A stretch of DNA of 38,589 nucleotides. Source: a virus. Lineage: Duplodnaviria > Heunggongvirae > Uroviricota > Caudoviricetes. The stretch spans positions 1 to 38,589 of IMG/VR virus record IMGVR_UViG_3300031857_000056; one strand, given 5' to 3'. A program made the translations under genes and the position numbers. Below, piece by piece: positions 2,230-2,520 of the stretch. Under the pieces are notes generated by a model. The model saw nothing but the letters and a program-made list of their open reading frames with translations, was not told the DNA's origin and made no database searches. The first letter of the stretch is position 1; each line of letters opens with the position of its first letter.

Positions 2230-2520
2230 GATAGTGGCGGAACAACCTTTGTATAGGGGTAACGCACAATAGTGGTGAAGAATCATTATTGGTTGGAGTA
2301 ATAATGTGCAGTGTAAGTCTATGGCGGATTGTGGGTCGTACAACCTATAATTCAAGCGTAACGACATCGTAGCTAAAATAAATGATATATCGTAGGTCGT
2401 TGTGGGAAACCAATCCCATCAATCGTTAACATAGAGAGTAATTAACTTTATGGATTGTGGATGAATAACGGTGCATATTGTGAAACTTGGAGGTAATCAT
2501 TAGTCCTTCCTATTTGAATT
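2230..2520 (+). ncRNA. Putative ~290-nt structured ncRNA of unknown family (element 4)
   Basis: Follows boxA in the position a tRNA occupies elsewhere; many helices (2349-2356/2513-2520, 2360-2365/2396-2401, 2420-2424/2453-2457, 2285-2290/2300-2305); no ORF in the track. Confidence 0.55.

What the first reader, a model, noticed from the sequence alone, without database searches (positions are those of the whole stretch)
2230..2520. ~290-nt structured RNA with its own boxA and a possible long-range pseudoknot
Seen: it starts about 5 nt after the best boxA. A 5' domain has GCAC/GTGC (2264-2267/2306-2309) enclosing ATTATT/AATAAT, plus a bulged hairpin 2326-2345. A 3' domain is closed by AATTCAAG/TTTGAATT (2349-2356/2513-2520) and holds at least three nested helices. 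CACAATA 2265-2271 can pair with TATTGTG 2476-2482 across the domains, loop GGTTG 2291-2295 can pair with CAACC (2243 or 2341), and GGATTGTGG occurs twice. No RNase P, tmRNA or group I core motif was found. Inferred: an uncharacterised large ncRNA, possibly ribozyme-like.
Basis: partly seen in the sequence, partly recalled or inferred. Interest (0 to 1): 0.72.

Follow-up and report, generated by a model that had tools for sequence, protein, structure and literature searches.

The report
Double-core manA-like phage RNA
The flagged stretch is a real, transcribed 293-base RNA of a freshwater giant phage, built from two fused copies of the core of the cage-forming manA RNA; its loops have co-evolved to pair as in those cages, so it probably self-assembles, although what it does for the phage is untested.

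Summary
It lies in a phage tRNA array behind a boxA and has 46 distinct relatives, nearly all near phage tRNA genes. My structure is 93% paired, with 50 of 76 pairs changing on both sides. It holds two manA-type cores: core A is linear; core B is circularly permuted and plugged into A's P8 slot through B's P3 arm. Small models built only from canonical manA find both cores. It is not an Rfam manA member (14 bits, cut-off 55). Core B's P8 loop co-varies with A's L3 (37/37 perfect triplets, 7 types, 8/8 out of sample) and with L9, matching the contacts in manA cryo-EM cages. Two loops stay self-complementary, which implies pairing between molecules. RNA contigs from three studies join the 3' end (2518) to the 5' end (2226-2227): a circle or a reverse-transcription artefact. 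The proposed pseudoknot is not conserved; there is no ribozyme evidence. This scan noted enlarged, end-joined manA-like RNAs and marine double-core forms before, on other DNA. Best reading: a self-assembling RNA particle; its role as a decoy or scaffold is inferred only.

The parts
2062..2089 (+). sigma70-type promoter (10/12, extended -10) upstream of tRNA-Leu(TAA); probably also drives this RNA
   Evidence: consensus match only
2213..2224 (+). rrn-type boxA antitermination site directly upstream
   Evidence: kept in 29 of 46 relatives
2226..2518 (+). mature double-core manA-like RNA, 293 nt; ends found joined in RNA contigs
   Evidence: joints 2518 to 2226 and 2227
2226..2234 (+). 5' strand of core A closing stem (manA P2); pairs with 2510-2518
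   Evidence: helix 1: 95% paired, 3 of 6 pairs change on both sides
2235..2265 (+). core A P3 arm: 3-bp P3a (2237-39/2263-65), manA M1-type internal loop (2240-45/2260-62), P3b and loop L3 (2250-55; kissing triplet 2252-54)
   Evidence: helices 2 and 3: 100% paired, all pairs change on both sides
2267..2291 (+). core A hairpin replacing the manA P4-P7 junction; GNRA-like pentaloop 2277-2281
   Evidence: a docking role for the loop is inference
2301..2313 (+). 5' strand of the link helix (core A P8 = core B P3b); pairs with 2469-2481
   Evidence: helix 6 (8 of 12 pairs change on both sides)
2314..2319 (+). core B return strand: internal-loop side 2314-16 and P3a 2317-19 (pairs with 2460-62)
2326..2353 (+). 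core B hairpin with self-complementary loop (GTAC 2338-2341)
2361..2400 (+). core B P8 arm (2361-65/2396-2400); loop carries 2382-86 (partner of L9) and 2387-89 (partner of L3)
2402..2424 (+). core B P9 hairpin (2402-2419) and 3' strand of core B closing stem (2420-24, pairs with 2453-57)
   Evidence: (helices 11 and 12: 100% and 99% paired)
2430..2452 (+). core B P1 hairpin with palindromic loop 2439-2444 (equivalent of the manA L1-L1' contact)
2453..2468 (+). core B head: closing-stem 5' strand, TG linker, P3a, internal-loop side 2463-68
2469..2481 (+). 3' strand of the link helix
2489..2509 (+). core A P9 hairpin, 11-nt loop L9 (kissing segment 2496-2500)
2510..2518 (+). 3' strand of core A closing stem

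Best explanation
A free-standing non-coding RNA of a freshwater jumbo phage, transcribed with the tRNA array under boxA antitermination (inferred) and cut out at the ends of its closing stem, 2226-2518 (shown by RNA contigs). It folds as a covalent pseudo-dimer of manA: linear core A, plus circularly permuted core B whose P3 arm is continuous with A's P8 helix (shown by covariation). That covalent link stands where single manA RNAs use an intermolecular L3-L8' kiss (inferred from the preprint's numbering). Core B's P8 loop pairs with A's L3 and L9 (pairing shown by covariation; whether within or between molecules is not shown). Two self-complementary loops on core B pair with the same loops of another molecule (inferred: adjacent bases co-vary as complements). 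Together these most likely build closed RNA-only oligomers with even-numbered rings of cores joined on two-fold axes. Most likely role: a stable, multivalent particle in the infected cell that binds or decoys host RNA-binding proteins or nucleases and so protects the phage's tRNA supply (speculative, about 0.3). My odds for the steps: two-core fold 0.9; at least dimers between molecules 0.8; closed cage 0.6; true covalent circle 0.45.
For: Structure: 93.4% of cells paired against 81.0 in shuffles and 39-49 when slid; 50 of 76 pairs change on both sides against 27.6. Two cores: one descriptor finds permuted core B in 28 of 29 relatives, linear core A in 25 of 29 and in 5 of 7 manA-type loci, but in 1 and 2 of 2900 shuffles. 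A model built only from canonical manA P1+head ranks 2428-2469 and 2207-2246 first and second in the 38.6-kb window (E 0.066, 0.12); its ten best hits in 16 related loci are all core B heads (best E 4.7e-5). A manA P9 model ranks 2487-2515 first and hits both tails in several relatives. Core B's head equals the Rfam consensus 11-mer in 13 of 46. Kissing: L3/L8 triplets are 3/3 Watson-Crick in 29 of 29 (5 types; 1 of 120 permutations) and in 8 of 8 later-found long-type relatives under a fixed rule, adding 2 types. L9/L8 is 5/5 paired in 28 of 29, with one compensatory pair. Preprint 10.64898/2026.07.01.735769 reports L3-L8', L8-L9' and L1-L1' as intermolecular contacts of manA cages. Palindromes: the P1 loop is palindromic in 36 of 39 long-type members and 6 of 7 manA-type loci; the centre of the 2338-2341 loop is TA, GC, AT or CG in 36 of 44, and the rest (TT, GA, GT) are one-step intermediates, with at least 9 changes on the tree. 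Kretsch et al. (10.1101/2024.12.08.627333) use the same argument for cross-chain pairs. Expression: 14 RNA runs hold it; contigs close exactly on the closing stem in three studies; the joined form was not found in IMG/VR.
Against: No assembly was observed or modelled. The single-copy model hits in this window are individually weak (E 0.04-0.12), and the P9 model missed this window's core B tail at E 10. The L3 contact is only 3-4 bp (-1.4 kcal/mol alone). A shorter, roughly 250-nt subtype (7 sequences) lacks core B's P1 and closing stem and fails the fixed L3 rule. The L5-L7' contact, shared by four of the five solved manA variants, has no counterpart here. The covariation-based fold is about 5 kcal/mol above the computed minimum. 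Relatives are kin, so cell counts overstate independent events. No evidence at all bears on the role in the cell.
Confidence: 0.68

Rival explanations
1. Same two-core fold, but a compact monomer or simple dimer: the L8-L3 and L8-L9 pairs close within one molecule, giving a rigid, nuclease-proof, tRNA-like shape that decoys a host protein without building a cage.
For: Both kissing partners lie in one chain, and covariation cannot tell cis from trans. Core A is a four-arm junction with a closing stem, in a tRNA slot of the array. The L5-L7' ring contact is missing.
Against: The same loop pairs are intermolecular in manA structures. Adjacent bases in two loops co-vary as complements, which cannot be pairing within one loop.
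Confidence: 0.2
2. A ribozyme, for instance one that cuts itself out or joins its own ends.
For: Ends are found joined in RNA data; junction strands are highly conserved.
Against: No match to any catalytic family. The joints differ by 1-2 nt between runs (292 and 293 nt; 294 in a variant), unlike a precise self-ligation. The conserved strands are the manA module, which is reported as structural.
Confidence: 0.05
3. A cis-regulatory element or riboswitch, as manA was first proposed to be (PMC2864571).
For: Rfam files manA as cis-regulatory; complex conserved fold.
Against: An ORF of 60 aa or more begins within 150 nt downstream in only 4 of 46 loci; tRNA or tRNA-like genes usually follow, and in L184 a terminator-like hairpin follows directly; the RNA appears as a discrete unit.
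Confidence: 0.03
4. A virion or packaging RNA, like phi29 pRNA, whose kissing loops form a ring on the prohead.
For: manA forms pentameric rings through kissing loops; pRNA does likewise (PMC12990946).
Against: It lies among tRNA genes, not packaging genes; two cores per chain fit even-numbered rings, not a five-fold vertex (inference).
Confidence: 0.04

Closest known systems
manA RNA motif (Rfam RF01745; Weinberg et al. 2010, PMC2864571; cryo-EM preprint Ren et al. 2026, 10.64898/2026.07.01.735769)
   Same: Core junction (closing stem, TG, 3-bp P3a, GAAYAA/TAA internal loop, P9 hairpin), palindromic P1 loop, and complementarity of the P8 loop to L3 and L9. One canonical manA fetched here (L108) also sits directly after a tRNA gene.
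   Different: Two cores in one 293-nt chain, one circularly permuted; no P4-P7 four-way junction and no L5-L7 pair (like variant 6FAB); the P8 loop matches both L3 and L9, whereas solved manAs use one or the other; a second palindromic loop; freshwater jumbo phages; 14 bits here and at most 31.7 bits in relatives against a cut-off of 55.2.
GOLLD and ROOL RNAs (Kretsch et al., 10.1101/2024.12.08.627333; review PMC12990946)
   Same: Phage or prophage RNAs near tRNA clusters, function unknown, cage-forming through kissing loops including symmetric ones.
   Different: 550-830 nt, unrelated folds; no Rfam match to either.
phi29 prohead RNA
   Different: No sequence or fold match; tRNA-array setting; no link to packaging shown.
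Double-core manA-like RNAs of marine phages noted earlier in this scan (about 400-435 nt; unchecked AI notes)
   Same: Two manA modules in one stand-alone RNA beside tRNA genes.
   Different: About 100-140 nt longer and marine; I did not see their sequences, so whether they share this permuted topology is untested.

Membership tests
manA (RF01745) | Score at or above the Rfam gathering cut-off (55.2 bits) | tested here: not met
   14.2 bits in the window; 16.9-31.7 bits at the right place in 10 of 12 related loci; canonical manAs score 105-133
manA (RF01745) | Closing stem, TG, P3a and GAAYAA/TAA internal loop (M1 module) | tested here: met
   present twice
manA (RF01745) | P9 hairpin with 11-nt loop directly before the closing strand | tested here: met
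   2489-2509; core B copy has a 8-11 nt variable loop
manA (RF01745) | 5' P1 hairpin with self-complementary loop | tested here: met
   on core B only, 2430-2452; absent from core A
manA (RF01745) | P4-P5-P6-P7 four-way junction with L5-L7 pairing | tested here: not met
   replaced by single hairpins in both cores; the solved variant 6FAB also lacks the junction
manA (RF01745) | P8 loop complementary to L3 or L9 | tested here: met
   both, with covariation
manA (RF01745) | Single core, under 200 nt | tested here: not met
   293 nt, two cores
manA (RF01745) | Location in potential 5' UTRs of metabolic genes | tested here: not met
   ORF downstream in 4 of 46 loci
manA (RF01745) | Self-assembly into closed oligomers in vitro | not testable with these tools
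   no RNA complex prediction or experiment available
GOLLD / ROOL | Match to the Rfam models; length over 500 nt | tested here: not met
Known ribozymes, RNase P, tmRNA, group I intron | Match to the family model or catalytic core | tested here: not met
   relatives carry a separate tmRNA
Circular RNA | 3' end joined to 5' end in RNA and not in DNA | tested here: inconclusive
   joint in three studies, none in IMG/VR; no matched DNA run or raw reads, so template switching is not excluded
Circular RNA | Resistance to RNase R and altered mobility on 2D gels | not testable with these tools
   needs RNA

The most novel reading that the evidence does not exclude
A natural, covalently closed circular RNA made by a phage, consisting of two fused cage-forming modules in which one intermolecular kissing contact has been converted into a continuous helix, and which assembles in infected cells into a symmetric RNA-only cage. 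It would be an evolutionary record of how RNA quaternary contacts become covalent, as with gene fusion in protein oligomers.
Probability: 0.25. Interest if true: 0.88.

Novelty: new variant of a known kind. Interest (0 to 1): 0.68.

Why it matters
The manA preprint shows cages in vitro only and offers no biological role. Here natural selection has kept the same loop contacts through seven different triplet pairs and several palindromes, in an RNA twice as complex, which argues that the contacts matter in nature. The family gives exact, compensable mutations for testing whether phage RNA cages form in cells, recasts manA-type RNAs as stand-alone genes rather than riboswitches, and supplies a natural pre-fused building block for RNA nanoparticles. 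If the end-joining is real it would be an unusual case of an abundant circular RNA made by a DNA phage.

Tried and rejected
No whole genome is held. blastn against 50,697 annotated phages found nothing real. All 16 hits in bacterial and archaeal genomes were chance matches, so none was found outside phages at this sensitivity. A full-length covariance model could not be calibrated. A linear tandem fold (head A with tail B) was rejected: it is 4/5 paired here and breaks in L180 and L184, where the nested pairing holds. Pairing of the 2292-2299 linker with core B's L9 does not co-vary by eye. A decayed protein gene was rejected. Lack of contig cover on neighbouring tRNAs was not used: the runs were chosen with this gene. 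A ligase was sought: a close relative (L188, 78% identical virion protein) encodes an Rnl5/DRB0094-type RNA ligase, but that family seals nicks in duplexes (PMC5397189), and five other fragments had none over the cut-off, so it is a weak candidate. Rnl1 and RtcB were not found in that one fragment (uninformative). The host was not identified. Literature searches found no description of a two-core or circular manA; the library is incomplete.

Full report
Setting. The window is part of a large tailed phage: a tRNA array on the + strand (1-2803, eight tRNAs by ARAGORN) followed by virion and tail genes. No genome is held. A close relative is a 173-kb fragment rated 73% complete, so the genome is probably over 200 kb. 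The flagged stretch lies between tRNA-Leu(TAA) and a tRNA-Gly-like gene at 2526, behind a boxA (2213-2224) and a sigma70-type promoter at 2062-2089.

Observation. The + strand folds better than shuffles (z -2.42), the - strand does not. All six frames are closed and 32 of 36 indels among relatives break frame. Pattern scans gave 29 distinct full-length relatives at 56-98% identity and, with a different pattern used later, 17 more. Nearly all lie near phage tRNA genes; only 4 of 46 have an ORF within 150 nt downstream and 29 keep a boxA-like site. Hits in bacterial genomes were chance.

Transcription and ends. Fourteen RNA runs from six freshwater, river and estuary studies hold the sequence. 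Laid on 1-3300, two runs give a closed 323-nt contig that goes from 2518 back to 2226, a third joins 2518 to 2227, and a fourth shows a variant sequence running from 2523 into 2230. The joined form was not found in IMG/VR. A 7-nt repeat flanks both ends, but the 293- and 292-nt joints are one and two bases shorter than a jump across that repeat would give. The joint therefore marks the mature ends, which coincide with the closing stem. It may be a true circle or a reverse-transcriptase jump between ends held together by the stem; contigs cannot decide.

Structure. The structure read from the relatives is 93.4% paired, with two-sided changes in 50 of 76 pairs (27.6 in shuffles; 14-27 when slid). 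It was drawn from these same sequences, so the slid control is lenient.

Relation to manA. Rfam gives only a weak manA match (14.2 bits) plus a second fragment at 2488-2509, but finds manA at the right place in 10 of 12 related loci, up to 31.7 bits, always below the cut-off of 55.2. The reason for the low score is that the RNA holds two cores. Core A is linear: closing stem 2229-2234/2510-2515, P3 arm 2237-2265, P9 hairpin 2489-2509. Core B is circularly permuted: its return strand (2314-2319), P8 (2361-2400), P9 (2402-2419) and closing 3' strand (2420-2424) come first, then its P1 hairpin (2430-2452) and head (2453-2468). B's P3 arm continues into the helix 2301-2313/2469-2481, which sits in A's P8 slot. 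One descriptor finds core B in 28 of 29 relatives and 1 of 2900 shuffles, and core A in 25 of 29 relatives and 5 of 7 manA-type loci. As an independent check, a model built only from canonical manA P1+head ranks core B's and core A's heads first and second in the window and core B heads in the top ten places of 16 related loci; a manA P9 model ranks core A's tail first and finds both tails in several relatives. Both cores lack the manA P4-P7 junction.

Contacts. The three bases at 2252-2254 (loop L3 of A) are exactly complementary to 2387-2389 (P8 loop of B) in 29 of 29 sequences, across five different triplet pairs. With the rule fixed, 8 of 8 testable later-found long-type members also matched 3/3, adding two new pairs. 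The adjacent five bases 2382-2386 pair with 2496-2500 (L9 of A) in 28 of 29, with one compensatory pair. The preprint reports L3-L8' and L8-L9' as alternative intermolecular contacts in manA rings, and L1-L1' in the 60-mer. I infer its numbering from the legends (M1 between P3a and P3b, junction P4-P7, GNRA in L6); I could not see the figures. On that numbering the covalent B-P3/A-P8 link replaces an L3-L8' kiss. Core B's P1 loop is palindromic in 36 of 39 long-type members, in several different palindromes, one identical to that of canonical manA. A second loop (2338-2341) has a complementary central pair in 36 of 44, the others being one-step intermediates, with at least nine changes on the tree. 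Adjacent bases cannot pair within one loop, so this points to pairing between molecules (argument as in Kretsch et al.). A shorter subtype of about 250 nt lacks core B's P1 and closing stem and does not obey the L3 rule.

Mechanism. Shown: a transcribed, stem-closed, two-core RNA with co-varying loop contacts. Inferred: antitermination through boxA, release from the tRNA precursor by host nucleases, assembly into closed oligomers with an even number of cores per ring and two-fold links. Speculative: a role as a stable decoy or scaffold that shields the phage's tRNA pool from host nucleases; the only support is its place in tRNA arrays, which it shares with GOLLD and ROOL. Origin by insertion of a permuted copy, from a tandem repeat or a circular intermediate, is plausible but untested. 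A close relative encodes an Rnl5-type RNA ligase, a poor fit for closing a loop because that family seals duplex nicks.

Comparison and novelty. It works like manA and descends from it, but fails the family score, the single-core size, the four-way junction and the 5' UTR setting, so it should not be filed as RF01745. I found no paper describing a two-core, permuted or circular manA. Earlier notes of this scan had already called look-alike freshwater RNAs enlarged manA relatives with joined ends, and marine ones double-core. The manA lead came from my Rfam search; the notes gave me the preprint and the circle idea, both checked here. I derived the two-core layout, the L3 and L9 covariation and the palindromes before reading the marine notes.

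Verdict. A real RNA gene; a new variant of the manA kind; interest 0.68, limited because assembly and function are untested and circularity is unresolved.

Noticed in passing
window 425-590: Weak wcaG RNA match at 425-530 (30.2 bits, E 6.5e-4, cut-off 42). The element is conserved in 29 loci at 84-98% and partly covered by RNA contigs. wcaG accompanies manA in cyanophage S-CREM1 too.
   Followed up: partly
window 125-338: About 210-nt element closed by an 11-bp stem between tRNA-Lys and tRNA-Glu (z -1.9); a variant is in one RNA run; no Rfam match and no relative among my loci.
   Followed up: partly
window 2526-2599: tRNA-Gly-like cloverleaf with anticodon ACC, missed by ARAGORN and Rfam; found in 20 loci; the same slot holds TCC or ACC versions in relatives.
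   Followed up: partly
window 624-699 and 709-778: Two non-canonical CAT-anticodon tRNA-like genes ending in CCA, missed by ARAGORN.
   Followed up: no
window 1751-1844 and 2612-2704: Two tRNA-Ile(TAT) genes with long variable arms sharing a 7-nt loop.
   Followed up: no
window 854-1633: 259-aa endonuclease-like ORF (phrog_945, E 1e-5) inside the tRNA array, found in only 3 related loci: probably a mobile homing endonuclease.
   Followed up: partly
window 1850-1962: Unassigned non-coding element between tRNAs, weak folding (z -0.4), found in 2 related loci.
   Followed up: partly
L209, L210, L212, L214, L217, L222, L228: Shorter subtype of about 250 nt in which core B has lost P1 and its closing stem but keeps the palindromic loop; several lie next to a phage tmRNA.
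   Followed up: partly
L161 about 10911-11077 (-): Compact single-core manA-like RNA of about 140 nt that Rfam misses at its cut-off.
   Followed up: partly
L179 518-710; L222 3551-3610: Group I intron among tRNAs (74.8 bits) and a pistol ribozyme match (36.9 bits, cut-off 34.5) in related arrays.
   Followed up: no
L208 3716-3788 (-); L226 3180-3252: tRNAs with CTA anticodon in two related phages: possible TAG recoding.
   Followed up: no
L229 1268-2275: Rnl5/DRB0094-type RNA ligase beside an ATP-dependent DNA ligase in a close relative.
   Followed up: partly
window 2277-2281: The pentaloop varies only between GAAGA and GAAAA, the two loops of lambda boxB (from memory), about 50 nt after boxA; more likely a GNRA-like docking loop.
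   Followed up: no
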